DNA of 64,000 bases, taken from Escherichia phage vB_EcoS_I14. The translations under genes were made by a program, and so were the position numbers. Under the pieces are notes generated by a model. That model was not told the DNA's origin and ran no database searches. It saw only the letters and a program-made list of their open reading frames with translations. The stretch lies in sequence record PP892525.1. One strand, written 5' to 3'. Positions 20,140 through 46,334 of this stretch are shown here, piece after piece. Each line of letters opens with the position of its first letter. The first letter of the stretch is position 1.

Positions 20140-22014
20140 TTATTTAGCTCGAATATCCTGATGTTTCACCCTGCCCATAACCTCATGCTGTTTGCCTGGG
20201 TTAAATGGACGAGCACCTGGATTTCCAAGATACCCACAAACTCGACGAGTTACTTCAAGAGTTTCAGGGTCATGATTACCACAGATAGGGCACTTAAACC
20301 CATCTTCGGATGCTATTGTTTCACCTAAGAATCCACATTTACCACAAGAATCCACTGGAGTATTAATACCGAAGTAATGAACCTTACTAGCAGCATAATT
20401 AATAACCCATTCCAGTGCATCTGGGAATCGTTTCATATCCGGTAGTTCTACATAGGAAATACACCCACCAGAAGCAATCGGAGTAAAGTTAGATTCATAA
20501 TCAAATTTGACGTTAGGAGCAACTTTACGTTCCACATCAAGGTGGTGCGAGTTAGTGTAGTATCCTTTAGACAGAATATCTTCATGCTCTGGGAAATATT
20601 CACGGTCTAGACGACAAAAACGATCACATAGGGATTCTGATGGTGTAGCATACAGGCTATAACCTAACTTAGTTTCTTCCTTCTTCTGATCGACTCTATC
20701 CCGCATGTACTGCAATACACGCTGAACAAACTTGATGCAGGTCTCGGACATTGTGTCTACATCTTTGCCAAACATGAACTGTAGCATTTCATGGCAACCA
20801 ATATACCCTAGAGATACAGAAGCACGGTTATAGAAATGATCGAATACATATTCATCAGGCTCCAAGCGTAAACCAAAGGCTCCTGACATATAGAGGATAG
20901 GTGCAGCTTTAGCTTGGATGTATTTTAAGCGATCAACTCTCCACTCCAATGCTTTTAACGCTGTATCCACACGTAGCTCAAGCAAATCAAAGAATAGATC
21001 AATATTTCCTTCAGCTTCGATAGCAATTCTAGGCAAGTTTACAGAAACAACACCTAAGTTATTACGACCGGCAGTTTCACCATCTTCTGTAGCAGCTAAG
21101 AATGAACGACAGCCCATAGAAACTTTATAGTCTCCAGTAACTTCCACAACCTTATCATAGCTGATATAATCTGGATACATACGTTCAGCAGTACATTTCA
21201 TAGCTAACTTCTTGATGTCATAATTAACATCCCCTGGTTTCATATTTACGCCATCACGAAGTACAAATACCAGTTTCGGGAAGATAGCTGTACGTTTATT
21301 GATACCTAAACCATCCATGCGTACTTTGAGTATTGCTTTCTGTACTAGACGTGCTTCCCAAGAAGTTCCCAGACCAAAGCCAAAGGTAATAAATGGACTC
21401 TGACCATTAGAGTTGAACATGGTATTGATTTCATATTCTAGACCCTGACAGGCATCATAAACTTCTTTTTCAGTCATCTCCGTAGCCATTACTGATGCTT
21501 TGGCCTCATCCTTAGTCCAACGTTTTGCAAACGCATGATTTTTGTCATAGGATTTACGAACATAAGGAGCTAATACTTCATCAAGGCGATCCACGGAAGT
21601 ACCACCATACTGATGGGAACTAACCTGTGTGATAATCTGAGCTGTAATAGCCGCCGCAGTAGTGATAGAGTTTGGAGTGCTAATTTCAGCATTACCAACC
21701 TTCATACCATTCTTCAACATATCTTCCAGAGCTACCAGACAACAGTTAGTCATGCCTAATGCAGCATAATCAGCATCATGGAAATGAATATCCCCAATCA
21801 TATGAGCATTTCGAATCTGAATTGGCATTTCTTCTAGAATCAGATACTTACTCAATTCACCTGCAAGCATATCCCTTTGTGTAGGGAAACGTTCTGAGGG
21901 TTTATTGGCATTATTAAACAGCAGTTCTTCATCTGCTGACCCTTCGATAATCTCTTTGCAGTTTCTAATTAACGCCTGCATTCCTTTATACTTTAGTTCT
22001 TCATTGCGATTCAT
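20140..22014 (-). CDS. nrdD: anaerobic ribonucleoside-triphosphate reductase (class III)
   Basis: 624 aa; C-terminal glycyl-radical motif RVCGYLG; Cys cluster CGKCGF...CPICG; RBS AGGAGG. Confidence 0.9.
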   Translation of the reverse strand: MNRNEELKYKGMQALIRNCKEIIEGSADEELLFNNANKPSERFPTQRDMLAGELSKYLILEEMPIQIRNAHMIGDIHFHDADYAALGMTNCCLVALEDMLKNGMKVGNAEISTPNSITTAAAITAQIITQVSSHQYGGTSVDRLDEVLAPYVRKSYDKNHAFAKRWTKDEAKASVMATEMTEKEVYDACQGLEYEINTMFNSNGQSPFITFGFGLGTSWEARLVQKAILKVRMDGLGINKRTAIFPKLVFVLRDGVNMKPGDVNYDIKKLAMKCTAERMYPDYISYDKVVEVTGDYKVSMGCRSFLAATEDGETAGRNNLGVVSVNLPRIAIEAEGNIDLFFDLLELRVDTALKALEWRVDRLKYIQAKAAPILYMSGAFGLRLEPDEYVFDHFYNRASVSLGYIGCHEMLQFMFGKDVDTMSETCIKFVQRVLQYMRDRVDQKKEETKLGYSLYATPSESLCDRFCRLDREYFPEHEDILSKGYYTNSHHLDVERKVAPNVKFDYESNFTPIASGGCISYVELPDMKRFPDALEWVINYAASKVHYFGINTPVDSCGKCGFLGETIASEDGFKCPICGNHDPETLEVTRRVCGYLGNPGARPFNPGKQHEVMGRVKHQDIRAK

Positions 22015-22045
22015 TATACCCTCCTTCTCTAACTAAGACTACTAT

Positions 22046-22074
22046 TATAACTCATTCGAAGGCGGATGTCAACA
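22046..22074 (-). promoter_or_regulatory. consensus sigma70 promoter (minus) for nrdD: -35 TTGACA, -10 TATAAT
   Basis: plus ATTATA 22046-22051, TGTCAA 22069-22074, 17 bp spacer. Confidence 0.7.
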
Positions 22075-22123
22075 ATATTTTACTATAAAGTTCTATAACA
22101 TGATCTGAGTCAAAAAATTTTAT

Positions 22124-22152
22124 TTGCCAACCTCTACTAAAAATAGTATAAT
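22124..22152 (+). promoter_or_regulatory. T5-type promoter: -35 TTGCCA, -10 TATAAT
   Basis: 17 bp spacer; divergent from nrdD promoter. Confidence 0.6.
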
Positions 22153-22264
22153 CACGCACCCGTGTACGCGATATAAAATGATTATCTAGTACCATACATC
22201 TCCCAATAAAAGCAAGCAAATTTTTTATTTAAATGCAATATCATAGGCTTATTTAAAATTGTAG

Positions 22265-22293
22265 TTGCTTTCTCCCGTATATATTGGTATAAT
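22265..22293 (+). promoter_or_regulatory. T5-type promoter: -35 TTGCTT, -10 TATAAT
   Basis: 17 bp spacer; about 75 nt upstream of phoH. Confidence 0.65.
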
Positions 22294-22366
22294 ATATTTG
22301 TAAGTTGATAAACAAGATCTTTTTGTTGATCCTCTGTTAGCGAAGTACACTATAGGAGTGTTATTT

Positions 22367-23119
22367 ATGGGAAAAGCACGTCAAAAAAGAGAGAACCGCA
22401 ATGGTTCAAGAAAGCGTGGCAACAAGTACGAGAGTAACGTAATTCAAGCAGATTTCTCTGGTGATTACGCCAATCCAGTTGCTAAATCCCTAGTTGGTAA
22501 AAACCGTGAGCAAAAATCATATATCAATATGATCAAGAACAACACAGTGACTGTGGGTATCGGTGAACCAGGTACTGGTAAAACCTTTATCCCGTCCGTT
22601 CTTGCAGCTCAGGAACTCGTAGACATTCACTCAGATATTGAGCAAGTGATCCTCGTGCGTCCGAACGAACCTCTAGGTAAATCTCTTGGTATGCTCCCAG
22701 GTGATCTAGCAGAAAAGCTAGAGCCTTGGTTGGAACCAATAGCCGATGGCATGAAATGGGCAATCGGTGATCACGCCTATAAAGGATATGTCGAACGTCA
22801 GAAAATCAAATTCCTGGCTATCGAACATGCCCGTGGCCGAACTTTCAACAACTCCTATGTAATTGTCGATGAAGCTCAGAATATTTCCGTTGAGGCAATG
22901 ATTTGTCTTCTAACTCGTGTAGGGCAAGACTGCCGTTTAATTATCTGCGGAGATATAGCTCAGAAAGACATTAAAGGTGACTCAGGTCTAGCACTCCTTA
23001 TGGAAGTCTATGAGAAATACGAAAATGCCCCATTCTCAATGATCGAATTGATTGATAACGTTCGTTCTGTTGAGTCTAAAGCATTCTATGACATCTTTAA
23101 AGACATGGGGAAGGTGTAA
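22367..23119 (+). CDS. phoH: PhoH-like ATPase
   Basis: Walker A GEPGTGKTF, Walker B VIVDEAQN; ATG at 22367 with RBS AGGAG. Confidence 0.85.
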   Translation: MGKARQKRENRNGSRKRGNKYESNVIQADFSGDYANPVAKSLVGKNREQKSYINMIKNNTVTVGIGEPGTGKTFIPSVLAAQELVDIHSDIEQVILVRPNEPLGKSLGMLPGDLAEKLEPWLEPIADGMKWAIGDHAYKGYVERQKIKFLAIEHARGRTFNNSYVIVDEAQNISVEAMICLLTRVGQDCRLIICGDIAQKDIKGDSGLALLMEVYEKYENAPFSMIELIDNVRSVESKAFYDIFKDMGKV

Positions 23120-23120
23120 T

Positions 23121-31531: not shown

Positions 31532-31532
31532 T

Positions 31533-36170: not shown

Positions 36171-36205
36171 ATAATGTATTTGTAAATCTAACTAGGAGAT
36201 CAAAT

Positions 36206-36730: not shown

Positions 36731-36745
36731 ATATCTTATAAATTC

Positions 36746-36834: not shown

Positions 36835-36840
36835 GATTTT

Positions 36841-36918: not shown

Positions 36919-37134
36919 ATTAAATAGAGGTCACAAATGGATCTATATATATAGTTTATGTTGTGTTTATCCAAGATAGAGAATACCCGGATGAATATAA
37001 AAAAGGATATAGGTTAGCCAGAGCTACTTCTGAAGCCCAAGCTATGGATAAAGTGGCAGATTATATGATTACAGTAGAAAACGTACACTATATCGACTAC
37101 CTTGAAGCCTCAAAAGTAATTGACTAAACTACAT

Positions 37135-37211
37135 GGGGGTGTAATCGAATTGGCATAGGTACTGGACTTAAAATTCAGGTTTTGTGGGTTCGAATCCCAC
37201 CACCCCTACCA
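37135..37211 (+). tRNA. tRNA with anticodon TAA on a short-variable-loop scaffold
   Basis: acceptor GGGGGTG/CACCCCT, anticodon stem CTGGA/TTCAG with loop CTTAAAA, T arm GTGGG-TTCGAAT-CCCAC, CCA; D arm weak. Confidence 0.55.
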
Positions 37212-37226
37212 AATTAAGGAAATAAG

Positions 37227-37394
37227 ATGTATAGACATCCACCTCCGCCAACACGTCGTTCTAGAGAAGTTATCCTCATGGAATTAACTAAAAACTTCAA
37301 GGCAACTCTTGAAGATAGAGATCTAGGCACGGATGAAGACATTGATTTTATTTGTAGACTACTAAAGATGAAACTGGAGAAACAACATGGCTAA
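37227..37394 (+). CDS. hypothetical small protein (55 aa), below the ORF-track cutoff
   Basis: ATG at 37227 after RBS AAGGAAA; stop overlaps next start (ATGGCTAA). Confidence 0.4.
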   Translation: MYRHPPPPTRRSREVILMELTKNFKATLEDRDLGTDEDIDFICRLLKMKLEKQHG

Positions 37395-37593
37395 TCCTGA
37401 AATTACCGCACAACGTTTCATGCTTAAAGGCATGATTGCTGAAGCAGGTATGACTCAAGAGGTTGCAGACTTTCATAAGCAAATTCTTGATATTATAACT
37501 CTAGCTAAAGAGACTGGAGAAAAAGAGCACGCAGCAGCAATTATGGCTATATCTCTTATTAGTCTAGACTTGGCTGAAGAATCTGGAGTTTAG
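37387..37593 (+). CDS. hypothetical protein (68 aa)
   Basis: ORF. Confidence 0.45.
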   Translation: MANPEITAQRFMLKGMIAEAGMTQEVADFHKQILDIITLAKETGEKEHAAAIMAISLISLDLAEESGV

Positions 37594-37623
37594 CTCCTCC
37601 AAACAGAATTTTTAAAAATGTAC

Positions 37624-37653
37624 TTGCCTTTTGCTTTAAATTTCTGATATAAT
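37624..37653 (+). promoter_or_regulatory. T5-type promoter: -35 TTGCCT, -10 TATAAT
   Basis: 18 bp spacer; RBS AAGGAG before 37684. Confidence 0.6.
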
Positions 37654-37683
37654 AGTTATATAAATTGATGAAGGAGTTAACGA

Positions 37684-37959
37684 ATGCAAAATCGTGTTGT
37701 AGCAGCTGGTATTGAAAGTGCAATCTGTAAATCCTGGGAAGGCTGGGAAGGTGAGATTGAATGGCTTTATTTCTACGATGTAGAACTTCTTCCAGAAGTT
37801 AAAGCTAAATGTGTTGAAGCTGGCATGGCTCCAGATGCAAAAGCTGATATTGATATTTCAATGTCTGAACTTAAAGGTCGTGTAATTACTGTTGGTGATG
37901 AGGGCGAAGAAGTTTTCGAACTTCCGTTCTCCTTAACTGTCACTCCTAAGTTCGACTAA
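37684..37959 (+). CDS. hypothetical acidic protein (91 aa)
   Basis: ORF. Confidence 0.5.
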   Translation: MQNRVVAAGIESAICKSWEGWEGEIEWLYFYDVELLPEVKAKCVEAGMAPDAKADIDISMSELKGRVITVGDEGEEVFELPFSLTVTPKFD

Positions 37960-37995
37960 CTAATACAGCACTGAGCAAGTTCTTTAAAATTTGAC

Positions 37996-38024
37996 TTGCT
38001 CAGTGCCTTAAAACTTGGTATAAT
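37996..38024 (+). promoter_or_regulatory. T5-type promoter: -35 TTGCTC (overlapping TTGACT), -10 TATAAT
   Basis: 17 bp spacer; drives tRNA-Tyr. Confidence 0.6.
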
Positions 38025-38087
38025 AGTTATCTAATTTGGAAACATATTTAAAAGTGTTTAAACTAATATTTGAATACTTTTAAATAT

Positions 38088-38175
38088 GGGCGTTTATTCC
38101 GTAAGTGGTAGCGGAGGGGATTGTAAATCCCTGGTCATTGCGACTCGAGTGGTTCGACTCCATTAACGCCCACCA
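38088..38175 (+). tRNA. tRNA-Tyr (anticodon GTA), long variable arm
   Basis: acceptor GGGCGTT/AACGCCC, anticodon loop TTGTAAA, T loop TTCGACT, CCA. Confidence 0.8.
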
Positions 38176-38192
38176 AATTAAAGGTAAAGGAT

Positions 38193-38684
38193 ATGTATAT
38201 TGATAGGATAATTCAAGAAGCTGCAAATAGGGGTATTATACAGTTAGGTTCACCCGCTGATATAAACAAAGATCTAATATTAGAGAGCCTCACATTTGGT
38301 ACAGCTAACTTTGGTCGCGATAGTAATCGTCGGTATAGTTTGAAGTTATCTGCTCTATCTTTTATCAAGTATAACAAAAGTATTGGAGAAAAATCCAGCT
38401 GTGGTTTTATTTATGCAATAACTAACCCAGCTTGGGATAACTATGTAAAAATTGGTATGTCTTCTGATCCTAAAACAAGATTAGGAAATTACCAGACTTA
38501 CTCTCCTTTACGTGATTATAAGTTAATACATTGGTCATTTTGGTTTAATGCTAGAGAAGCTGAGAAAATGCTTCATAATAGCTTTCCCGAACGGCTTAAT
38601 GAATGGGTAGTATTAGATAGAAGTGTAGATGAAATACTTTCTGAGTTTAATAATCTATCCAATAAACAATTTAAGTCCTGTTAG
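38193..38684 (+). CDS. GIY-YIG motif protein (homing-endonuclease-like)
   Basis: CGFIYAITNPAWDNYVKIGMSS...R...Y matches the GIY-(10)-YIG pattern, unusually in the C-terminal half. Confidence 0.5.
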   Translation: MYIDRIIQEAANRGIIQLGSPADINKDLILESLTFGTANFGRDSNRRYSLKLSALSFIKYNKSIGEKSSCGFIYAITNPAWDNYVKIGMSSDPKTRLGNYQTYSPLRDYKLIHWSFWFNAREAEKMLHNSFPERLNEWVVLDRSVDEILSEFNNLSNKQFKSC

Positions 38685-38751
38685 ACAAACTGGTAAAGTC
38701 ACTACCCTTTCAAGGTAGGGTTTGTGGGTTCGATCCCCGCACAGGACGCCA
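38675..38751 (+). tRNA. tRNA-Glu (anticodon TTC)
   Basis: perfect acceptor GTCCTGT/ACAGGAC, anticodon stem CTACC/GGTAG with loop CTTTCAA, T loop TTCGATC, CCA. Confidence 0.85.
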
Positions 38752-38759
38752 ATTTCTGC

Positions 38760-38836
38760 ATTCCTAGAGTGTTACTGGACAGCATGTCGGTCTCCAAAAC
38801 CGTACGGTCTAGGTTCGAGTCCTAGTAGGTTTGCCA
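38760..38836 (+). tRNA. possible tRNA-Trp (anticodon CCA) with a mismatched acceptor stem
   Basis: anticodon loop CTCCAAA, T arm CTAGG-TTCGAGT-CCTAG, CCA; acceptor has two U-U oppositions. Confidence 0.45.
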
Positions 38837-38842
38837 AAATTT

Positions 38843-38917
38843 GCACCTTTAGCTGAGATGGATTAGCGCTTGCCTGAAGAGCTTGAGAGGTTCGTTCGAT
38901 ACGAACAGGGTGCACCA
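38843..38917 (+). tRNA. probable tRNA-Phe (anticodon GAA)
   Basis: acceptor GCACCTT/AGGGTGC, anticodon loop CTGAAGA, T arm GTTCG-TTCGATA-CGAAC, CCA; two mismatches in anticodon stem. Confidence 0.55.
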
Positions 38918-38919
38918 AA

Positions 38920-39207
38920 TTGAAGGAGCTGCTGATGCATCCTGAAAACTTCTTTATTTACTGCGCTGATAAGTCGCTAAAACGTAGAATTAACAAAGTC
39001 TATCATTATCGTGCTAGTCAACAGCCTTATGTATATGCTTTTGACGGTGATCACATTCCACTAGAACAATTATCTTGTGATTACATGATATTGAAGAACT
39101 TTGACGAGACGAAGATCTCAAGCGTTCACAATCGACAGAATCCATTAACGTGGAAATATAAGAAGAAAAAGAAAGGAATCAAATTCTTAAAAAATGTAGT
39201 TGCTTAG
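38920..39207 (+). CDS. hypothetical protein (95 aa)
   Basis: ORF. Confidence 0.45.
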   Translation: MKELLMHPENFFIYCADKSLKRRINKVYHYRASQQPYVYAFDGDHIPLEQLSCDYMILKNFDETKISSVHNRQNPLTWKYKKKKKGIKFLKNVVA

Positions 39208-39228
39208 TTTCCAAAAGTTCTGTATAAT
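39200..39228 (+). promoter_or_regulatory. T5-type promoter: -35 TTGCTT, -10 TATAAT
   Basis: 17 bp spacer. Confidence 0.65.
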
Positions 39229-39239
39229 AATTACATAAA

Positions 39240-39482
39240 TTGAACTGGAGAAGCAACATGACAGAACAAGAATTGAATGAACGTAAGCTGGTAATGCTTC
39301 GCTTACTAAATATTTTCTCTGGTATGGACGGTGGAATTGACTTTGTTCATCTACGTTCTTTCGTAGAAGAAGCCGAAGGCGAATCTATCACTAAAATCCT
39401 TAAACACATGGGATTACTTTTAGATGCTGCTAATGTGGCTACTGAATATAAACTAGAAGATCTACCGGAGCGTGTTAAATGA
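39240..39482 (+). CDS. hypothetical protein (80 aa)
   Basis: RBS GGAG. Confidence 0.5.
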   Translation: MNWRSNMTEQELNERKLVMLRLLNIFSGMDGGIDFVHLRSFVEEAEGESITKILKHMGLLLDAANVATEYKLEDLPERVK

Positions 39483-39670
39483 AACGATTAGTTAGATTTA
39501 AGTGTTGTGGTTCTGAACATATTTTCACACATCTTCGTGAATTTAAAATGTGTGATTGTGGTAAATCAGGCTATGACTCAGGAGATGGGTTCTACGCCCG
39601 TACTCTAGGGAACTTCAATGATCTAGAATTTGAAGATCTCGAAAAGCAAGATAAATCGACCGTTGGCTGA
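39479..39670 (+). CDS. hypothetical zinc-ribbon-like protein (63 aa)
   Basis: Cys pairs CCGSEH...CDCGKSG. Confidence 0.45.
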   Translation: MKRLVRFKCCGSEHIFTHLREFKMCDCGKSGYDSGDGFYARTLGNFNDLEFEDLEKQDKSTVG

Positions 39671-39732
39671 ATGGCTTAGGCGAAGGATTGCAAATCCTTT
39701 TTATGTGAGTTCAAATCTCATGCGGTCGTCCA
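39657..39732 (+). tRNA. tRNA-Cys (anticodon GCA)
   Basis: acceptor CGACCGT/GCGGTCG, anticodon stem AAGGA/TCCTT with loop TTGCAAA, T loop TTCAAAT, CCA. Confidence 0.8.
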
Positions 39733-39739
39733 AATTTTA

Positions 39740-39822
39740 GGGTCGTTAGCCAAGCGGTTTGGCGGCGGATTGTTAATCCGTGTCGAAAGACAACGTAGGT
39801 TCGAATCCTACACGGCCCGCCA
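39740..39822 (+). tRNA. tRNA with anticodon GTT on a long-variable-arm (type II) scaffold
   Basis: acceptor GGGTCGT/ACGGCCC, anticodon stem GCGGA/TCCGT with loop TTGTTAA, 13 nt variable arm GTCGAAAGACAAC, T arm GTAGG-TTCGAAT-CCTAC, CCA. Confidence 0.6.
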
Positions 39823-39924
39823 AATTCTGTGTAGAGTTAAGTAAACCGGTAGCCAACCAGCTATCATTGCTGACATCGAATTCAGCCACAGATACCATTT
39901 TCATTAATAACTGAGGAAACAAGC

Positions 39925-40110
39925 ATGTCCAAGAATGTAATTGCACAGTTAGAAGTTCATCGTGATAACACAGCTAATAACATTAAGTGCCGACAAAAAG
40001 ATATTGAAGCTCGAAAGGCTGATCTTTTAATGAGTATTCGAGAGCTTAATGTACGAAAAGAGTTTCTTAAAGAACTTAATGCAGCTATTGAAAAACTCAA
40101 AGCTGAGTAA
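39925..40110 (+). CDS. hypothetical protein (61 aa)
   Basis: RBS GAGGAAA. Confidence 0.45.
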   Translation: MSKNVIAQLEVHRDNTANNIKCRQKDIEARKADLLMSIRELNVRKEFLKELNAAIEKLKAE

Positions 40111-40119
40111 ATGAATTAT

Positions 40120-40196
40120 GCGACCGGGGCTGGCTTGGTAATGGTACTCCCCTGTCACGGGAGGGAATGTGGGTTCAAATCCCATCGGTCGCGCCA
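40120..40196 (+). tRNA. tRNA-Asp (anticodon GTC)
   Basis: perfect acceptor GCGACCG/CGGTCGC, anticodon stem CTCCC/GGGAG with loop CTGTCAC, T loop TTCAAAT, CCA. Confidence 0.85.
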
Positions 40197-40222
40197 AACT
40201 AAACTAGCACGAGAAATATGAT

Positions 40223-40570
40223 ATGGTTAATGCTAAAGAAGAATTGTTACTTGCCCTAAAGAATACTAATTCTGAAGTTAAGTGTATTAAGATAGAATTC
40301 GGTTATTATGGGGACAAAGAAGTTTGGGTATTACCCATAGGTTATACAGAAAAAGATATTGAAGATTTTCTAAATAATCTAGACTTTAAATATGATTCTG
40401 GTTTCGGTGGACAATTGCTTTATGGTAACGTATGGTTTACTGATGGAACTTGGTTAGAACGTGGTGAATACGACGGTTCTGAATGGTGGGAATATAAGGC
40501 TACACCAGCAATCCCAGAAGAATGCCGAACAATTAATGGTGAAGTAGATCGTACTTTACTATTAAATTAA
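40223..40570 (+). CDS. hypothetical protein (115 aa)
   Basis: ORF. Confidence 0.5.
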   Translation: MVNAKEELLLALKNTNSEVKCIKIEFGYYGDKEVWVLPIGYTEKDIEDFLNNLDFKYDSGFGGQLLYGNVWFTDGTWLERGEYDGSEWWEYKATPAIPEECRTINGEVDRTLLLN

Positions 40571-40692
40571 CAAAATTTCAGTGCAGAACACGGAGCTAGC
40601 AATTCGGAAGTGCTGACTCATGATAAGCTGCCTATGTACTTGCGAAGCGGTCGTGTCCAAGACTCGGACTCTTGCACTGAAAACAATCAAAC

Positions 40693-40813
40693 ATTCTAGC
40701 GTGGTTGATGGGGAAACCAGCTTGGCTAGGGCAGAAGCTCGTTCGATTCGAGTGAAAGAATGGTTCTCGTAAGTCCGCACAAGTGATAGCAGGTTCGAGT
40801 CCTGTCTAGAATG
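40693..40813 (+). ncRNA. candidate tRNA-like RNA of about 121 nt with an enlarged central region
   Basis: 7 bp acceptor-like helix ATTCTAG/CTAGAAT, D-arm-like TGGTT...AACCA, canonical T arm GCAGG-TTCGAGT-CCTGT, but about 68 nt where an anticodon arm should be. Confidence 0.35.
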
Positions 40814-40962
40814 ACACTATAAAGTTTACTTATTATGTAGGTTCCGATAGATCGGCGGGTCTATTCTGGCATTTAAGAGAAGTCTCGCAAACTTTTTTGT
40901 CAGCCGTGGGGTTGGTAGCCTCCAGGTGGCCTACACAATAAGTAAATTTATTAAAAATTCAT

Positions 40963-40991
40963 TTGCTATTCTGCTTTATTATCTGTATAAT
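40963..40991 (+). promoter_or_regulatory. T5-type promoter: -35 TTGCTA, -10 TATAAT
   Basis: 17 bp spacer. Confidence 0.7.
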
Positions 40992-41023
40992 ATATTTTAT
41001 AAAGTGAAGAGAAGGAAAGCAAA

Positions 41024-41182
41024 ATGAAACACAAGATAGCTCAAGTCTTTATGGCATTATGGTGTATGCCAATAGCTATAACAGCATTTAATCTAGATAC
41101 TTTTACTATAGAAGAAAAATATATCGGATTAGTTAGCGGCTTTAGTATGCTGGGCTTATCTTTGCTGTGGTTAAAGAAATAA
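41024..41182 (+). CDS. hypothetical small membrane protein (52 aa), below the ORF-track cutoff
   Basis: ATG at 41024 after RBS AAGGAAAG; hydrophobic. Confidence 0.4.
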   Translation: MKHKIAQVFMALWCMPIAITAFNLDTFTIEEKYIGLVSGFSMLGLSLLWLKK

Positions 41183-41186
41183 TATT

Positions 41187-41264
41187 CTCCGTGTAGCTCA
41201 GTTTGGCCAGAGCGTTTCGTCTGGAGCGATAGGGTCGGGGGTTCAAATCCTCCCACGGAGACCA
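41187..41264 (+). tRNA. possible tRNA-Pro (anticodon TGG), atypical anticodon loop
   Basis: acceptor CTCCGTG/CACGGAG, D stem GCTC/GAGC, loop TCTGGAG with C at position 33, T arm GGGGG-TTCAAAT-CCTCC, CCA. Confidence 0.5.
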
Positions 41265-41270
41265 AATAAT

Positions 41271-41348
41271 TGCGGGTTAGATCTCTGGTAGAGATCGCTA
41301 GTCTCATAAGCTAGAAAGAGGTAGGTTCGATTCCTGCACCCGCTTCCA
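41271..41348 (+). tRNA. tRNA with anticodon CAT (Met, fMet or Ile-lysidine)
   Basis: anticodon stem CTAGT/GCTAG with loop CTCATAA, D stem GATC/GATC, T loop TTCGATT, CCA; position 1-72 mispaired. Confidence 0.65.
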
Positions 41349-41368
41349 TTTTAATAGAGGATTTCGAA

Positions 41369-41536
41369 ATGAAAGTATTTCGATTAGTAGTAAGTGACAA
41401 ACGCTTAGGTAAGAATACATCAAAATCCTTACTTGCTCATTATGGTAGAAATTGGGATGAAGTAATGGCAGAGTTTAGTACTAATCACCCTTACTTGAAA
41501 GTTCACTCTATTAAAGAAGTATACAATGGTTACTAA
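41369..41536 (+). CDS. hypothetical small protein (55 aa), below the ORF-track cutoff
   Basis: ATG at 41369; ends 2 nt before tRNA-Lys. Confidence 0.4.
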   Translation: MKVFRLVVSDKRLGKNTSKSLLAHYGRNWDEVMAEFSTNHPYLKVHSIKEVYNGY

Positions 41537-41537
41537 T

Positions 41538-41616
41538 AGATCGCTAGCTCAATAGGTTTAGTAGCATCCGACTTTTAATCGGAAGGTTCTGGGTTCGAGT
41601 CCCAGGCGATCTACCA
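41538..41616 (+). tRNA. tRNA-Lys (anticodon TTT)
   Basis: perfect acceptor AGATCGC/GCGATCT, anticodon stem TCCGA/TCGGA with loop CTTTTAA, T arm CTGGG-TTCGAGT-CCCAG, CCA. Confidence 0.85.
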
Positions 41617-41620
41617 AATT

Positions 41621-41694
41621 GCTCGGTTAGTTTAATGGGAGAACCCCGTCTTTACACGGCGGTTGCGATAGTTCGATTCTATCACCGAGTACCA
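41621..41694 (+). tRNA. tRNA-Val (anticodon TAC)
   Basis: acceptor GCTCGGT/ACCGAGT, anticodon loop TTTACAC, T arm GATAG-TTCGATT-CTATC, CCA. Confidence 0.8.
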
Positions 41695-41713
41695 ATTAAC
41701 TCAAAATAAGGAA

Positions 41714-42073
41714 TTGCAAATGCAATTATCAAGCAAGGTTCAAGGCTATTTCGGTCATGTAACAATGGAGTTCGCTATCTCTAAAGGTTGGGACTTCGAA
41801 CAAGATTTAGCTGAGTTCTACAAAGATATTGATCTGAACGTACCATATATGGGACTTTCTACTGGTCAGGAGATCACAGAAGCCGATGTATTCAAGGCAA
41901 GTCAAGGTGAGGTAACACCTAGTTTTGCCGAGTTCTGGTTAGGCATTACGTTAAAAGAAGATGCACCAGATAGTGGTGTACTAATGTCTAGTTTGCACTC
42001 TGGAAGTTCCGATTACCTTTTCATTAGCGATGTTAAGGAAATACAAGAAGTCTGCAAAAATGTACTTGCTTGA
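41714..42073 (+). CDS. hypothetical protein (119 aa)
   Basis: RBS AAGGAA; 3' end overlaps next promoter. Confidence 0.5.
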   Translation: MQMQLSSKVQGYFGHVTMEFAISKGWDFEQDLAEFYKDIDLNVPYMGLSTGQEITEADVFKASQGEVTPSFAEFWLGITLKEDAPDSGVLMSSLHSGSSDYLFISDVKEIQEVCKNVLA

Positions 42074-42094
42074 TGCTTAATTTCTTGTTATAAT
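42066..42094 (+). promoter_or_regulatory. T5-type promoter: -35 TTGCTT, -10 TATAAT, driving a non-coding transcript
   Basis: 17 bp spacer; no ORF follows, only a structured region and then tRNA-Ala. Confidence 0.65.
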
Positions 42095-42120
42095 ATTTAT
42101 ATAAATTGATGAGGATTTCT

Positions 42121-42310
42121 CCTCATCATAGTTCACTAAGGTATTAGCTCGACCTAGGACTGGCTGCCAAAAAGCACGATCCCTACGATTCGGGAGAAGT
42201 TCTAGATTAGTCCACTAGATTCAGCGGCAACTGAATAGTGTATTGGGTTTGCGAGATGACGCGGTTCCTTCCGCTCGAAGCGAAGGTGCTGTAGTTACGC
42301 CGAGCTAATA
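42121..42310 (+). ncRNA. candidate structured small RNA of about 190 nt
   Basis: terminal clamp ATTAGCTCG (42143-42151) pairing with CGAGCTAAT (42301-42309); internal hairpins GCGGTTCCTTCCGC and CTTCGC/GCGAAG; no ORF. Confidence 0.4.
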
Positions 42311-42332
42311 GCCTTAGTAAACTAAAGAATTT

Positions 42333-42406
42333 GGGGATATAGTTTAATGGTAGAACATCTGCTTTGCACGCAGAAGACGAGGGTTCAACTCCCTCTTTCT
42401 CCACCA
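42333..42406 (+). tRNA. tRNA-Ala (anticodon TGC)
   Basis: anticodon stem TCTGC/GCAGA with loop TTTGCAC, T arm GAGGG-TTCAACT-CCCTC, CCA; one U-U in acceptor. Confidence 0.7.
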
Positions 42407-42412
42407 AAATTC

Positions 42413-42497
42413 GGGGCTATGCTGGAACTGGTAGACAATACGGCCTTAGATTCCGTAGCTTAAATGCGTGGGAGTTCGAGTCTCCCTAGCCCCACCA
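42413..42497 (+). tRNA. tRNA-Leu (anticodon TAG), long variable arm
   Basis: perfect acceptor GGGGCTA/TAGCCCC, anticodon loop CTTAGAT, T arm GGGAG-TTCGAGT-CTCCC, CCA. Confidence 0.75.
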
Positions 42498-42513
42498 ACT
42501 TATAGGGTAATGT

Positions 42514-43098
42514 ATGCAGTTTGTACCAATAAAAGATGCACCAGGGTATTTAGTAAATGAAACAGGGGATGTGTTATCTACATTTACTAATAAAATTTTA
42601 TCAAGATATATAGTTGATGGATACCCTGCTGTAAAATTACAGATAAATGGTAAGCAAACTTCGGTACTTATACACCGAATTATTTCTCATGTATTTGGGG
42701 ACTTATATAATCTATTTGACCCTGAATTAGAAGTAGATCACAAGGATAGAGATAGGCTGAATCTATCTAAAGATAATCTTCAAGTTTTATCAAAAATAGA
42801 ACATCAGAAGAAAACTAATAAAGATAATGGATGGTCTGATAGTAGAGTACCTTGCCCCTTATGTGGAAATCTAATGCTTCAGAGATCAGTAACATGTACA
42901 AATTGTAAGCCAAAACCTACAGGAAAGTTAATAAAACCAGAGTTGTCCTTAGAAGACATAACTGAAAAGGTTTTATTAATGGGGTGGGTTAAGGCAGCTA
43001 AAGATCTAGAAGTATCAGAGTCCACTTTACGTAGACGATATACTAAACTAACCGGATTAAGCCCAAAAGTATTAACAGAACAACGGAAAAGCAAATAG
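42514..43098 (+). CDS. HNH homing endonuclease-like protein
   Basis: HNH motif in VDHKDRDRLNLSKDNLQVLSKIEHQ plus C-terminal Cys cluster; embedded in tRNA array. Confidence 0.7.
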   Translation: MQFVPIKDAPGYLVNETGDVLSTFTNKILSRYIVDGYPAVKLQINGKQTSVLIHRIISHVFGDLYNLFDPELEVDHKDRDRLNLSKDNLQVLSKIEHQKKTNKDNGWSDSRVPCPLCGNLMLQRSVTCTNCKPKPTGKLIKPELSLEDITEKVLLMGWVKAAKDLEVSESTLRRRYTKLTGLSPKVLTEQRKSK

Positions 43099-43178
43099 AC
43101 TGGTGACTAAACCCGATTGGAAATCGGTTGAGTGGTAGCAATACCGCCTTATGGGTTCAACTCCCATCTTTTCCGCCA
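43085..43178 (+). tRNA. tRNA-Ser (anticodon GGA), long variable arm
   Basis: perfect acceptor GGAAAAG/CTTTTCC, anticodon loop TTGGAAA, T arm ATGGG-TTCAACT-CCCAT, CCA. Confidence 0.8.
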
Positions 43179-43190
43179 AACAATTTATAT

Positions 43191-43285
43191 GGTAGGTCAA
43201 TCCAACGGCTGGCGCTGGACTCCGACTTGAAATCGGTTGATCGTAGTGATACGGTGTAAGGGTTCGATCCCCTTACCTACCTCCA
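43191..43285 (+). tRNA. tRNA-Ser (anticodon TGA), long variable arm
   Basis: perfect acceptor GGTAGGT/ACCTACC, anticodon loop CTTGAAA, T arm AAGGG-TTCGATC-CCCTT, CCA. Confidence 0.8.
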
Positions 43286-43651
43286 AATCTTGAAGTATGC
43301 CGGAATCGGTAGACGGGGCTGCCTAAAAGGTTTATAGGGAACATCCACTCCCTGCAACATACCTCATAAAGCGGCTGAGATAAATGGTCTATCTCGTGAA
43401 GGTTCAAGTCCTTCTGCTTCTTGATACATCTATGGCTCAAAGTGTAACGGTGCTATTTGATGCTCTTGGTAAGACTTCCCCGACATGCGTTCGGGAGTAA
43501 GCTGCTAAGGCTAGGGTAGAAGAGTTTCTGAGAGCCGCCACAATTGAAAATTCGTACTCGTCTTGAGCTGCGTGCAATAGGAGATAACTTGATTAGTATT
43601 CTAGAACATGCTAATTGAGGAAGGTTTCGCTAACCCTGCGAGTTTTCAATT

Positions 43652-43728
43652 GTGGCTATATCATAATTGGTTAATGATCCTGATTGTGAATCAGGCCTAT
43701 GTGGATTCGAATTCCACTAGCCACCCCA
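43652..43728 (+). tRNA. tRNA-His (anticodon GTG)
   Basis: perfect acceptor GTGGCTA/TAGCCAC, anticodon stem CCTGA/TCAGG with loop TTGTGAA, T arm GTGGA-TTCGAAT-TCCAC, CCA. Confidence 0.85.
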
Positions 43729-43752
43729 AATTAACTTAAATAGGAAATAAAT

Positions 43753-43947
43753 ATGGCTGATTTCTGCAAACAATGCTCCATTGATATGTGGGGCAGAGAT
43801 ACTGGTGATCTTTCTGGTTTGATTACAGAAGCTGAAGTTAAAGAAGGCTACGGTGCTGTTGTGGTTTGCGAAGGATGCGGAGTTATTCGAGTAGATCATG
43901 AAGGCAAACGTTTGGAAGAATCTGAGCCAACAACGATTTTTCCGTAG
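43753..43947 (+). CDS. hypothetical zinc-ribbon protein (64 aa)
   Basis: CKQC...CEGCG Cys pairs; RBS TAGGAAA. Confidence 0.5.
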   Translation: MADFCKQCSIDMWGRDTGDLSGLITEAEVKEGYGAVVVCEGCGVIRVDHEGKRLEESEPTTIFP

Positions 43948-43963
43948 AATAAGATGAAATTAT

Positions 43964-44039
43964 TGGGATGTAGATCAATTGGCAGATCGTCGGTTTCTGA
44001 CATCGAAGGTTCCACGTTCGATCCGTGGCATCCCAGCCA
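43964..44039 (+). tRNA. tRNA-Gln (anticodon CTG)
   Basis: perfect acceptor TGGGATG/CATCCCA (U1-A72), anticodon loop TTCTGAC, T arm CCACG-TTCGATC-CGTGG, CCA. Confidence 0.8.
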
Positions 44040-44045
44040 AACAAT

Positions 44046-44120
44046 TGGAAAGTAGTGTAATGGTTAGCACTGGAGATTTTGAATCTCTTAGTTAGGGTTC
44101 GAATCCCTACTTTCCTGCCA
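44046..44120 (+). tRNA. tRNA-Gln (anticodon TTG)
   Basis: anticodon stem GGAGA/TCTCT with loop TTTTGAA, T arm TAGGG-TTCGAAT-CCCTA, CCA; position 1-72 is U-U. Confidence 0.7.
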
Positions 44121-44126
44121 ATTTAC

Positions 44127-44201
44127 GCGTGATTAGTTCAGTGGCTAGAATAACTGGCTTCCAACCAGTAGACACGAGTTCGACTCTCGTATCCCGCACC
44201 A
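44127..44201 (+). tRNA. tRNA-Gly (anticodon TCC)
   Basis: anticodon stem ACTGG/CCAGT with loop CTTCCAA, T arm ACGAG-TTCGACT-CTCGT, CCA. Confidence 0.75.
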
Positions 44202-44218
44202 ATTTTTAAGGAAACGTT

Positions 44219-44440
44219 ATGCACGTTTTTGAATTTCGTAATAAAAGTACCGATAAACGAGTTATTGTTATTGGAGAAACATACCGAGCATACGAACAAA
44301 CTGACGGCTCTGTTATCTTGAATGACGAGAAAGGAGGTTTTAGCTTTTATCCCAAAGAAACTTACGAAGAATTTCGTACAAAGTTTCTTCTACCAGACTG
44401 GCTAGAAGTAGCGCAGCAACGAGAACCCGAAGATGGCTGA
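44219..44440 (+). CDS. hypothetical protein (73 aa)
   Basis: RBS AAGGAAA. Confidence 0.5.
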   Translation: MHVFEFRNKSTDKRVIVIGETYRAYEQTDGSVILNDEKGGFSFYPKETYEEFRTKFLLPDWLEVAQQREPEDG

Positions 44441-44597
44441 TAACCTAAAAGTCAAGATCGATAAACAAAAGAAACGTGTAGAAGTAGAGATTGGTGAAGA
44501 ACGTGTAGCCTTCACCTTTGAATTTCTACAACAAATGGCAATGACAGTTATGACTGATAAGTCTCCTGTTATTGAAAAAGAAATCCCGTTAAAATAA
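44433..44597 (+). CDS. hypothetical small protein (54 aa), below the ORF-track cutoff
   Basis: ATG at 44433 overlapping previous stop; stop codon sits inside palindrome ATCCCGTT-AAAA-TAACGGGAT. Confidence 0.4.
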   Translation: MADNLKVKIDKQKKRVEVEIGEERVAFTFEFLQQMAMTVMTDKSPVIEKEIPLK

Positions 44598-44605
44598 CGG
44601 GATCT

Positions 44606-44692
44606 GCTGGGTTGGCAGAATGGTTGAATGCACCTGATTTGTAATCAGGAGGAGTAATCCCGTTGCAGGTTCGAATCCTGTGCCCAGCACCA
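44606..44692 (+). tRNA. tRNA-Thr (anticodon TGT) with a 15 nt variable region
   Basis: acceptor GCTGGGT/GCCCAGC, anticodon stem CCTGA/TCAGG with loop TTTGTAA, T loop TTCGAAT, CCA; variable region AGGAG plus TAATCCCGTT. Confidence 0.6.
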
Positions 44693-44706
44693 ACTTAAGG
44701 ACTAGT

Positions 44707-44874
44707 ATGTTTAAACTGTTAGTAGTTATCTGGTATAGTCAATCAAATAGAGCGAATACCTCCCACGTTATAGACTTTAATACTAAAAATGAAGCTGAAA
44801 AAGCATACGCTAATTTAATAGAACGTAATAAAGAATCTCGTAGTATAGTTTATGAAGTGACTAAACTTTATTAA
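44707..44874 (+). CDS. hypothetical small protein (55 aa)
   Basis: ATG at 44707 after RBS AAGGA; the longer ORF-track start 44680 would overlap the tRNA. Confidence 0.4.
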   Translation: MFKLLVVIWYSQSNRANTSHVIDFNTKNEAEKAYANLIERNKESRSIVYEVTKLY

Positions 44875-44882
44875 AAATTCAT

Positions 44883-44911
44883 TTGCCTTCTCTCTTATTT
44901 CTTGTTATAAT
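44883..44911 (+). promoter_or_regulatory. T5-type promoter: -35 TTGCCT, -10 TATAAT
   Basis: 17 bp spacer. Confidence 0.65.
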
Positions 44912-44941
44912 ATTTATATAAATTAATGAGAGGGAAACCAA

Positions 44942-45235
44942 ATGAAACGTTATATTTCTGTTATGTTCCAAACTGGTGGTCAACGCTATACATATGAATT
45001 TCCATCTTCTTGGAAAATCAAAGAAGGTGATCAAGTAGTTGTACTAACACCTCGTGATGGGTACAAGGTAGTAACGGTTAAGCAAGTCTTCCCAAAAGAT
45101 TATACGCCATCTAAGTCTATTAATTATAAAATGATTCATGGTGTAGTTCGTCAAGTACCACGAGCGGAAGTCGAAATCAAAGTAGATAAAGATGGTAAAC
45201 TTAAATATACCTCTTGCTTAGAAGAGTTGCTATAA
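44942..45235 (+). CDS. hypothetical protein (97 aa)
   Basis: RBS GAGAGGGAAA. Confidence 0.5.
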   Translation: MKRYISVMFQTGGQRYTYEFPSSWKIKEGDQVVVLTPRDGYKVVTVKQVFPKDYTPSKSINYKMIHGVVRQVPRAEVEIKVDKDGKLKYTSCLEELL

Positions 45236-45441
45236 TGAGGATTACTTTTACAGAAAAGATCATGAGTAATGGTGTTATGATCATTACTGCATGGGATGGT
45301 AATCAGTGGTGTAGTGTCTCAGGTATTAAGCCTGAAGAACAAACACTAGATAATATCTCAAAGATTAAGCGAAGAATGACAGAACGTGCACGACTTCCAG
45401 GTGCACCTAGAAATGGCAAACGTTCTGCTGCAAAATGTTAA
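45235..45441 (+). CDS. hypothetical protein (68 aa)
   Basis: ATG at 45235 overlapping previous stop. Confidence 0.45.
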   Translation: MRITFTEKIMSNGVMIITAWDGNQWCSVSGIKPEEQTLDNISKIKRRMTERARLPGAPRNGKRSAAKC

Positions 45442-45442
45442 T

Positions 45443-45519
45443 GCTTCGGTAGCTTAGCGATCTAAAGCACTCGGCTGATAACCGAGAGATCGGGGGTTTA
45501 AATCCCTCCCGGAGTACCA
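45443..45519 (+). tRNA. tRNA-Ile (anticodon GAT), non-canonical T loop
   Basis: anticodon stem CTCGG/CCGAG with loop CTGATAA, D stem GCTT/AAGC, T arm GGGGG-TTTAAAT-CCCTC, CCA. Confidence 0.75.
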
Positions 45520-45615
45520 AATTTAGGAATTAAGACTATGCGTCCAGGAAAGTTTAAAAAAGCTAATTGGTCTAAAGAGTATAAAGAATACTTACTTAGT
45601 CTAGTAAAACATAAT

Positions 45616-45691
45616 AGTTAGTTGGCAGAGTGGTTATGCACCTCCTTCATACGGAGCGACTACAGTGGTTCAAATCCACTACTAACTACCA
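45616..45691 (+). tRNA. tRNA with anticodon CAT (Met, fMet or Ile-lysidine)
   Basis: perfect acceptor AGTTAGT/ACTAACT, anticodon loop TTCATAC, T arm AGTGG-TTCAAAT-CCACT, CCA. Confidence 0.7.
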
Positions 45692-45728
45692 TTAAAAGAG
45701 CTAGAGATAGCTAACTTTAGGAGCAGCT

Positions 45729-45923
45729 ATGTTAACAATTAAAATAATGTCAGCCAAGAATGGGGAACAGATTCATACAGGCAAAAGTGTAAGCTTTAAT
45801 CCTAGAAATAAAAGACTGGCTATAGTTGGAGTAGACCAAGCCATCTTTTTAAAAGAAGATGAAGTAGCATATGTCATGAACCAAACTGGTAAGACAGTTT
45901 CCGTATACTATGGAAAAGTATAA
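45729..45923 (+). CDS. hypothetical protein (64 aa)
   Basis: RBS TAGGAG. Confidence 0.5.
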   Translation: MLTIKIMSAKNGEQIHTGKSVSFNPRNKRLAIVGVDQAIFLKEDEVAYVMNQTGKTVSVYYGKV

Positions 45924-45965
45924 AGAATAAATAGCTGAGCCAAATTCTAACATCGGGGAGATCTA

Positions 45966-46334
45966 ATGAAAGCATATCAAAACCTTAAATCTGGCGTAAT
46001 TAATATTGTTCATAATAATCAGATCATTCAGCTATACTCCGACAACGGTGAACTTAAACAGAAAGTTCTAGTTGAAGATCTAGAAGGTATCACACCACAA
46101 TTCGATCCTGAAGCCTTCCGTGAAGTTAAGGTGGAAGTCGCCCCTCAAATCGAAGGTGGTCAGCACCTAAATGTCAATGTGTTAAGCCGTGATCAGCTTT
46201 TGGATGCGCAGAAACACCCTGAAAAATATCCTCAGTTGACCATCCGTGTCTCTGGCTACGCTGTTCGATTTAATGCACTGACTCGTGAACAACAGAACGA
46301 CGTTATTAGTCGTACATTTACTCAGGCGATGTAA
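45966..46334 (+). CDS. grcA: GrcA/YfiD-like autonomous glycyl radical cofactor
   Basis: [11 protein letters not shown] and [21 protein letters not shown] match the glycyl-radical C-terminal module of GrcA/PflB as recalled. Confidence 0.8.

What the first reader, a model, noticed from the sequence alone, without database searches (positions are those of the whole stretch)
20140..46334. Glycyl-radical pair: NrdD at 20140..22014 and a GrcA-like spare-part protein at 45966..46334, with no NrdG activase
NrdD carries the C-terminal RVCGYLG glycyl-radical motif. About 24 kb away, inside the tRNA/small-ORF region, a 122 aa protein matches the C-terminal glycyl-radical module of GrcA/YfiD ([32 protein letters not shown]). 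No radical-SAM activase with a CxxxCxxC motif was found in the window, so both would depend on host activases. GrcA normally repairs oxygen-damaged pyruvate formate-lyase; a phage copy suggests manipulation of host anaerobic metabolism or rescue of NrdD.
Basis: partly seen in the sequence, partly recalled or inferred. Interest (0 to 1): 0.6.

Follow-up and report, generated by a model that had tools for sequence, protein, structure and literature searches.

The report
Known T5-phage NrdD and GrcA genes
The window comes from an ordinary T5-like phage, and the two glycyl-radical genes flagged are real, but both they and the missing activase gene are already described for T5 and T4 phages.

Summary
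Both ORFs exist exactly as described. The window is a T5-like phage (Tequintavirus, about 97% identical to Salmonella phage GSP044).

- **NrdD:** 20140..22014 (-) is an intact class III ribonucleotide reductase. All catalytic, zinc-site and glycyl-radical residues are present, including the Met of the formate-using type, and there is no ATP-cone.
- **GrcA-like protein:** 45966..46334 (+) is a 122 aa GrcA/YfiD-type protein. It is 118/122 identical to T5 gene T5.056 and 51% identical over its full length to T4 Y06I. Y06I was shown in 2001 to be activated by PflA and to repair oxygen-cleaved pyruvate formate-lyase (PFL).
- **Target of the spare part:** its C-terminal 61 residues are 80% identical to E. 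coli PflB 700-760. It has no similarity to the phage's own NrdD, so rescue of NrdD is not supported.
- **No activase:** no NrdG or PflA homologue is found in the window or in the complete GSP044 genome. Two candidates were tested and rejected: a CX3CX2C-bearing ORF next to the GrcA gene and the ORF just downstream of nrdD.
- **Prior knowledge:** phages with nrdD but no nrdG were documented in 2013.

The likely mechanism is dependence on two separate host activases. A functional link between the two genes through formate is my inference. Verdict: already known, low interest.

The parts
20140..22014 (-). nrdD, a class III (anaerobic) ribonucleoside-triphosphate reductase of 624 aa with no ATP-cone. 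Key residues: glycyl radical site G594 in RRVCGYLG, thiyl Cys302, Cys91, Met300, Asn319, and Zn site Cys557/560/575/578.
   Evidence: The alignment with E. coli and T4 NrdD gives 53.8% and 50.3% identity, with every functional residue conserved. The NCBIfam match starts at model position 87 of 712 and the alignment shows the first ~87 residues of E. coli NrdD have no counterpart; that this missing segment is the ATP-cone is from established knowledge.
45966..46334 (+). GrcA/YfiD-type autonomous glycyl-radical cofactor ('spare part') of 122 aa, orthologue of T5.056 and homologue of T4 Y06I (vs.6). The predicted radical glycine is G97 in RVSGYAV.
   Evidence: PHROG 1209 matches the full length at E 1e-47. 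Identity is 74% to E. coli GrcA 54-127 and 80% to PflB 700-760. PDB 6OWR matches at E 1.3e-30. Identity to T5.056 is 118/122. In the AlphaFold model the C-terminal half has pLDDT 73-85, and it matches the YfiD NMR structure and PFL.
45955..45960 (+). Shine-Dalgarno sequence GGGGAG, 5 nt upstream of the ATG of the GrcA-like gene.
   Evidence: Read directly from the sequence.

Best explanation
The window is part of a T5-like phage genome carrying two independent auxiliary genes for growth in oxygen-poor hosts.

1. NrdD makes dNTPs anaerobically. It is the formate-using type, with a Cys/Met pair. Because the phage has no nrdG, its Gly594 radical must be installed by the host's NrdG.
2. The 122 aa protein is a phage copy of the GrcA/YfiD spare part. 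The host's PflA would install a radical on its Gly97. The protein would then dock onto host pyruvate formate-lyase whose own C-terminal glycyl-radical domain has been cut off by oxygen, restoring pyruvate -> acetyl-CoA + formate.

What is shown here: the identities, the intact motifs and the absence of any phage activase.
What is shown elsewhere for a homologue: activation of T4 Y06I by PFL-AE and repair of cleaved PFL.
What is inferred: that the T5-type protein does the same; that host NrdG activates the phage NrdD; and that keeping PFL running benefits the phage through ATP/acetyl-CoA and through formate, the reductant NrdD consumes.
For: - **Phage identity.** The region is 97% identical to Tequintavirus GSP044 and matches 445 phage records. 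The window maps to GSP044 58139-110448 plus 72-13213.
- **GrcA family.** Evidence is. The RVSGYAV loop and 43 columns are invariant across phage and cellular GrcAs.
- **Phage homologues.** They occur in 1585 phage records, including T4-like phages at 51% identity over the full length.
- **Experimental precedent.** T4 Y06I and E. coli YfiD are the two experimentally validated spare parts, activated by PFL-AE (PMC8683613).
- **Activase specificity.** PFL-AE accepts RVSGYAV but not RVCGYLG peptides (PMC13450708).
- **NrdD is intact.** All catalytic residues are conserved, including Met300/Cys302. E. coli and T4 class III RNRs use formate with a Cys-Met pair (PMC4390871).
- **Gly-loop similarity.** By my own count on the sequences printed, the 32 residues from two before TRRVCGYLG to RVKH are 25/32 identical to E. 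coli NrdD and 20/32 to T4 NrdD.
- **No activase.** tblastn with E. coli NrdG and PflA gave a best E of 0.17. An NrdG HMM and a PflA phmmer search over all six-frame segments of the window plus the whole GSP044 genome gave a best E of 0.08. Nothing is annotated as an activase in GSP044, and none lies within 3.5 kb either side of nrdD (the locus fetched) in the more distant Klebsiella phage RCIP0070.
Against: - No experiment exists for the T5-type protein.
- It scores below NCBIfam's equivalog cut-off for GrcA (121 bits against 170), and only residues 50-122 match that model.
- Its N-terminal half is divergent and modelled at low confidence. In YfiD the N-terminus affects radical installation, so activation efficiency by host PflA is uncertain.
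- Host NrdG activating a 54%-identical phage NrdD is untested.
- From my own knowledge, not tested here: T5 shuts off host gene expression early, so the phage would rely on activase protein already present at infection.
- The absence of nrdG from the unseen ~45 kb of this particular phage is inferred from a relative, not observed.
Confidence: 0.78

Rival explanations
1. The GrcA-like protein is a spare part for the phage's own NrdD, replacing the NrdD C-terminal glycyl-radical domain after oxygen cleavage.
For: Both proteins carry a Pfam Gly_radical domain. The literature speculates that spare parts may exist for glycyl-radical enzymes other than PFL (PMC8683613).
Against: BLASTP of the two proteins finds nothing (E 5.5). 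The loop is RVSGYAV, the PFL type, not RVCGYLG. The C-terminal 61 aa are 80% identical to PflB. The protein lacks the four-Cys zinc site that precedes the NrdD radical loop.
Confidence: 0.03
2. The protein is a decoy or inhibitor. It soaks up host PflA activity, or occupies PFL non-productively, to shut down host fermentation rather than sustain it.
For: No direct evidence. The N-terminal half differs from host GrcA, and phages often carry host-mimicking inhibitors.
Against: Every residue invariant in functional GrcAs, including the radical glycine, is retained. The T4 homologue restores PFL activity. A decoy would not need the complete docking surface, which is 80% identical to PflB.
Confidence: 0.07
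3. The phage does encode an unconventional activase: either the CX3CX2C-bearing ORF 46416..46721 next to the GrcA gene, or ORF 19759..20040 just downstream of nrdD, which could be an nrdG remnant.
For: ORF 46416..46721 holds the only CX3CX2C motif in the window and has a faint NCBIfam hit to a radical-SAM maturase around the motif (E 0.024, 13.5 bits). ORF 19759..20040 is the best NrdG hit in the whole genome (E 0.08-0.17; shuffle test p<5e-4 against E. coli NrdG), and it sits where nrdG normally lies.
Against: - **ORF 46416..46721.** It is 101 aa and belongs to a family of ~70-100 aa proteins (882 clusters at E<=0.001). Their conserved core is RRHH...CSCxxCGNPRK, and the first Cys of the CX3CX2C string is not conserved. 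Homologues occur in unrelated jumbo phages.
Confidence: 0.02
4. NrdD is a non-functional relic in T5-like phages because its activase was lost.
For: There is no nrdG in the genome. T4 keeps its own nrdG close to nrdD, separated only by the mobC homing-endonuclease gene.
Against: The reading frame is intact and all catalytic, zinc and radical residues are conserved at only 50-54% identity to characterised enzymes. The gene is retained in ~390 records at >=80% identity and ~160 more at 60-80%.
Confidence: 0.05

Closest known systems
Bacteriophage T5 gene T5.056 (YP_006884.1, 'putative acetyltransferase-related protein', InterPro IPR001150)
   Same: It is the orthologue: 118/122 identical, the same length, and the same position at the end of the tRNA cluster, followed by the T5.055 homologue.
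   Different: Nothing of substance differs. The T5 record annotates it only by domain match, and no functional study was found.
Bacteriophage T4 Y06I (vs.6), a validated autonomous glycyl radical cofactor
   Same: Both are small standalone phage proteins (120 aa against 122 aa) that align over the full length at 51%. They share the N-terminal MKAYQ start and an identical [10 protein letters not shown] loop. Both fall in PHROG 1209.
   Different: The C-terminal 61 codons of T4 are 100% aa and 96% nt identical to E. coli grcA, which looks like a recent exchange with the host. The window's copy is only 70% nt identical to grcA and 78% to pflB. It carries the phage-clade signatures DAQ and DVIS, shared with jumbo-phage copies. 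T4 also encodes its own NrdG; this phage does not.
E. coli GrcA/YfiD (PDB 6OWR) and the C-terminal glycyl-radical domain of PflB (PDB 2PFL, 1H16)
   Same: The glycyl-radical domain is the same: 74% identity to GrcA 54-127 and 80% to PflB 700-760. The structural matches agree.
   Different: The N-terminal ~50 residues are not detectably matched by the GrcA equivalog model, and the total score is below its cut-off. The gene is phage-encoded.
Class III RNR NrdD of E. coli and of phage T4 (formate-dependent type)
   Same: The fold family and all functional residues are the same, including the Cys-Met pair.
   Different: It lacks the ATP-cone present in E. coli NrdD, as T4 NrdD also does. There is no intron, unlike T4 nrdD, and no cognate nrdG.

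Membership tests
GrcA/YfiD autonomous glycyl radical cofactor (NCBIfam TIGR04365; InterPro IPR011140) | Small standalone protein (~120-130 aa) whose C-terminal half is a PFL-type glycyl-radical domain with the RVSGYAV loop | tested here: met
   The protein is 122 aa. Pfam Gly_radical E 3.3e-18; 80% identity to PflB 700-760; 6OWR E 1.3e-30.
GrcA/YfiD autonomous glycyl radical cofactor (NCBIfam TIGR04365; InterPro IPR011140) | Score at or above the curated equivalog cut-off over the full-length model | tested here: not met
   The score is 121 bits against a cut-off of 170, and only residues 50-122 align. This reflects the divergent phage N-terminus.
GrcA/YfiD autonomous glycyl radical cofactor (NCBIfam TIGR04365; InterPro IPR011140) | N-terminal region homologous to that of cellular GrcA | tested here: inconclusive
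   BLASTP alignments to Vibrio GrcAs cover 86% of the query at 57-59% identity. Pairwise comparison of the N-terminus with E. coli GrcA is weak, and the model has low pLDDT there.
GrcA/YfiD autonomous glycyl radical cofactor (NCBIfam TIGR04365; InterPro IPR011140) | Glycyl radical installed by PflA, and restoration of activity to O2-cleaved PFL | not testable with these tools
   This has been demonstrated only for YfiD and T4 Y06I (PMC8683613).
Phage GrcA-like family (PHROG 1209; T4 vs.6/Y06I, T5.056) | Full-length match to the phage family profile | tested here: met
   E 1e-47, residues 1-122 on profile positions 1-121 of 121. Identity to T5.056 is 118/122 and 51% over the full length to T4-like copies.
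Class III ribonucleotide reductase NrdD | NRDD domain above curated cut-offs, C-terminal RVCGYLG glycyl radical loop, four-Cys Zn site and thiyl-radical Cys | tested here: met
   NF006732 scores 842.7 against 657, and TIGR02487 scores 588.7 against 326. G594, C557/560/575/578, C302 and C91 align with the E. coli and T4 residues.
Formate-dependent NrdD subtype (E. coli/T4 type) | Met two residues before the thiyl Cys (E. coli M382/C384) and no third active-site Cys | tested here: met
   M300-G-C302 aligns with E. coli M382-G-C384 and T4 M288-G-C290. The subtype definition is from PMC4390871. Actual use of formate is not testable here.
Glycyl-radical activating enzymes (NrdG / PflA, radical SAM) | Radical-SAM domain with a conserved CX3CX2C cluster motif, encoded anywhere in the phage | tested here: not met
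   tblastn and HMM searches of the window plus the complete GSP044 genome found nothing significant. The single CX3CX2C string lies in a 101 aa protein of an unrelated small-protein family.

The most novel reading that the evidence does not exclude
The two genes may form a functional module linked by formate rather than by a shared activase. The phage spare part would keep host PFL producing formate when oxygen fluctuates, and formate is the obligate reductant of the phage's Met-type NrdD. That could explain why GrcA-like genes turn up in T5-like siphoviruses, T4-like myoviruses and ~350 kb jumbo phages, groups in which NrdD and/or NrdG hits were also seen. It would also imply that T5-like phages run anaerobic dNTP synthesis entirely on host activases already present at infection.
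Probability: 0.25. Interest if true: 0.45.

Novelty: already known. Interest (0 to 1): 0.15.

Why it matters
If the inferred mechanism holds, T5-like phages, which are widely used as therapeutic and biocontrol phages against Salmonella and E. coli, carry two genes tuned to replication in the oxygen-poor, oxygen-fluctuating gut. Both would depend on host radical-SAM activases. That predicts host pflA or nrdG status and oxygen history could affect phage yield in vivo. As a discovery it adds little. The genes are annotated in hundreds of genomes, the protein family was characterised biochemically in 2001, and the missing nrdG was noted in 2013.

Tried and rejected
1. **ORF 46416..46721 as a mini-activase.** It holds the window's only CX3CX2C string and has a faint radical-SAM hit. 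I rejected it. There is no Pfam hit. It belongs to a family of ~70-100 aa proteins with a conserved CSCxxCGNPRK motif, and the first Cys is variable. Homologues occur in unrelated jumbo phages.
2. **ORF 19759..20040 as an nrdG remnant.** It is the best NrdG hit in the genome, lies immediately downstream of nrdD, and keeps the same GG-to-GKD spacing. I rejected it. The matching residues are not conserved in its own family. hhalign probability is 0.2%. The predicted fold is a helix plus an antiparallel sheet with no radical-SAM match.
3. **GrcA as a spare part for NrdD.** Rejected.
4. **Literature on T5-like GrcA, or on T5 nrdD without nrdG.** No paper discusses the T5 GrcA gene. Only gene lists mention T5 nrdD.
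5. **Tool limits.** The afdb50 fold library was unavailable. Wei et al. 2014 (PMC4246965) was not held.
6. **Record-level co-occurrence of GrcA and NrdD.** This could not be computed because hit lists are capped at 60 rows. Only totals are available: 1585 GrcA, 2908 NrdD and 2273 NrdG records.
Full report
**Observation.** Both ORFs are present exactly at the stated coordinates.
- ORF 20140..22014 on the minus strand encodes a 624 aa protein ending in ...TRRVCGYLGNPGARPFN....
- ORF 45966..46334 on the plus strand encodes a 122 aa protein containing [11 protein letters not shown] and [21 protein letters not shown].
- The first matches Pfam NRDD at E 2.7e-172 plus Gly_radical. The second matches Gly_radical at E 3.3e-18 over residues 62-103.
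- The small gene has a GGGGAG ribosome-binding site 5 nt before its ATG. It follows directly after a cluster of 24 tRNA genes at 35053..45691.

**What the window is.** The region around the small gene is 96-98% identical to many T5-like phages of Salmonella and E. coli, with 445 phage records matching.
- The whole window maps in reverse orientation to Salmonella phage GSP044 (Tequintavirus) positions 58139-110448 and 72-13213. About 45 kb of that genome (13214-58138: recombination, tail, head, terminase and pre-early genes) lies outside the window.
- In relatives the small gene is annotated as 'pyruvate formate-lyase', 'autonomous glycyl radical cofactor' or 'acetyltransferase-related protein'.
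- In T5 itself it is T5.056, annotated by its InterPro glycine-radical domain. T5.056 is 118/122 identical to the window's protein.

**The GrcA-like protein.**
- It matches PHROG 1209 over its full length at E 1e-47.
- Its C-terminal 61 residues are 80% identical to E. coli PflB 700-760, and residues 51-122 are 74% identical to E. coli GrcA 54-127.
- The best solved-structure relatives are YfiD (6OWR, E 1.3e-30) and PFL.
- An AlphaFold model is confident only in the C-terminal half: a helix, a hairpin carrying Gly97, then a helix. That half superposes on the YfiD NMR structure and on PFL.
- The N-terminal half is divergent. NCBIfam's GrcA equivalog model aligns only residues 50-122 and scores 121 bits against a cut-off of 170. 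BLASTP alignments to Vibrio GrcAs do cover 86% of the protein.
- Homologues occur in 1585 phage records. T5-like phages are at >=90% identity and T4-like phages at 51% over the full length. Copies from ~350 kb jumbo phages turned up in the protein search.
- In an alignment of phage and cellular members, 43 columns are invariant, including the whole [19 protein letters not shown] stretch. The phage copies share signatures (DAQ, DVIS) that cellular GrcAs lack.

**Experimental precedent.** T4 Y06I and E. coli YfiD are the two spare-part proteins validated experimentally. PFL-AE installs the glycyl radical on them, and they restore activity to oxygen-cleaved PFL (Wagner et al. 2001, as summarised in PMC8683613, and PMC13450708).

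**NrdD.**
- Aligned with E. coli and T4 NrdD, it is 53.8% and 50.3% identical.
- Every functional residue is kept: Cys91, Met300, Cys302, Asn319, the zinc site Cys557/560/575/578 and Gly594.
- The Met-x-Cys arrangement marks the formate-using type studied in E. coli and T4 (PMC4390871).
- It lacks the ~87 N-terminal residues of E. coli NrdD, which form the ATP-cone (model positions 87-706).
- By my own count on the sequences printed, the 32 residues from two before TRRVCGYLG to RVKH are 25/32 identical to E. coli NrdD and 20/32 to T4 NrdD.

**Is there an activase?**
- tblastn with E. coli NrdG and PflA against the window and the complete GSP044 genome found nothing better than E 0.17.
- An NrdG profile and a PflA phmmer search with filters off, run over all 2538 six-frame segments, found nothing better than E 0.08.
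- GSP044's annotation lists no activase. The nrdD neighbourhood fetched (3.5 kb either side) of a more distant T5-like Klebsiella phage has none either.
- NrdG homologues are common in other phages (2273 records). NrdD is found in 2908 records, of which about 550 fall in the T5-like identity bands.
- Dwivedi et al. 2013 had already stated that many phages carry only nrdD with nrdAB, and cited T5, EPS7 and SPC35 for the nrdD/phoH/class I (nrdAB) layout (PMC3653736).

**Two candidate activases, tested and rejected.**
- **ORF 46416..46721.**
  - It belongs to a large family of 70-100 aa proteins. Their conserved core is RRHH...CSCxxCGNPRK, and the first Cys of the string is not conserved.
  - Its homologues occur in unrelated jumbo phages.
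- **ORF 19759..20040.**
  - It lies just downstream of nrdD and was the best NrdG hit in the genome. It beat all 2000 shuffles against E. coli NrdG.
  - The matching residues are not conserved in its own family, and profile-profile probability is 0.2%.
  - Its predicted fold is a helix on a four-stranded antiparallel sheet, with only weak cystatin/NTF2-like matches.
- Neither ORF is an activase.

**Mechanism.** PFL-AE radicalises RVSGYAV peptides but not RVCGYLG peptides, so the two phage proteins need two different host enzymes.
- PflA would serve the spare part and NrdG would serve NrdD.
- The spare part almost certainly targets host PFL, not the phage NrdD. It is 80% identical to the PflB segment that oxygen cleavage removes, and it shows no similarity to NrdD (E 5.5).
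- The benefit to the phage is inferred. Continued PFL activity supplies acetyl-CoA and ATP, and it supplies formate, which the NrdD type encoded here uses as reductant. A 2026 review notes that formate-dependent class III RNR may consume PFL-derived formate.
- That link is my hypothesis for why the two genes travel together. It is untested.

**Comparison and novelty.** The closest known entities are T5.056 (orthologue), T4 Y06I (validated homologue), E. coli GrcA and the PflB C-terminus, and T4 and E. coli NrdD. Nothing here departs from them in kind. The finding is a correct reading of an already annotated and largely explained pair of phage auxiliary genes. I rate it already known, with interest 0.15.

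Noticed in passing
L009:2501-2863 (T4 vs.6/Y06I) compared with L004:2067-2450 (E. coli grcA): The last 61 codons of T4 Y06I are 100% aa and 96.2% nt identical to E. coli grcA, while its N-terminal half is phage-type (MKAYQ...). This looks like a recent recombination with the host gene. The T5-type copy is only 70% nt identical to grcA.
   Followed up: partly
window 46416..46721 (+): This 101 aa protein (T5.055 homologue) has an RRHHRQR...PCICSCWMCGNPRKYY motif. Its family has 882 clusters at E<=0.001, mostly 70-100 aa, with invariant R, H and CSCxxC and no Pfam family. One 3003 aa member (P0136) matched the query in 19 separate stretches. It is probably a small metal-binding domain of unknown function.
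   Followed up: partly
window 19759..20040 (-): This 93 aa ORF just downstream of nrdD is restricted to T5-like phages (10 clusters, including a 79 aa variant at ~57% identity). The predicted fold is a helix plus a four-stranded antiparallel sheet, with weak cystatin/NTF2-like matches. Its function is unknown.
   Followed up: yes
window 20140..22014 (-): The phage NrdD lacks the N-terminal ATP-cone of E. coli NrdD, so it should escape dATP/ATP overall-activity regulation. The same is true of T4 NrdD.
   Followed up: partly
window 22358..23119 (+) and about 18548..19363 (-): The ORF between nrdD and nrdA (window 22358..23119) corresponds by position to the gene annotated PhoH in GSP044, the layout noted for T5/EPS7/SPC35. 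By coordinate mapping, a gene annotated as a SIR2-family NAD-dependent deacetylase in GSP044 lies about 0.8 kb downstream of nrdD.
   Followed up: no
window 46843..47190 (+): This 115 aa ORF is a full-length match to Pfam DUF7295 (E 1.5e-53) and PHROG 5021. Its function is unknown.
   Followed up: no
window 35053..45691 (+): There are 24 tRNA genes in about 10.6 kb, interspersed with small ORFs, which is the typical T5 tRNA region. In the T5 record this region also carries annotated stable RNAs of unknown function.
   Followed up: no
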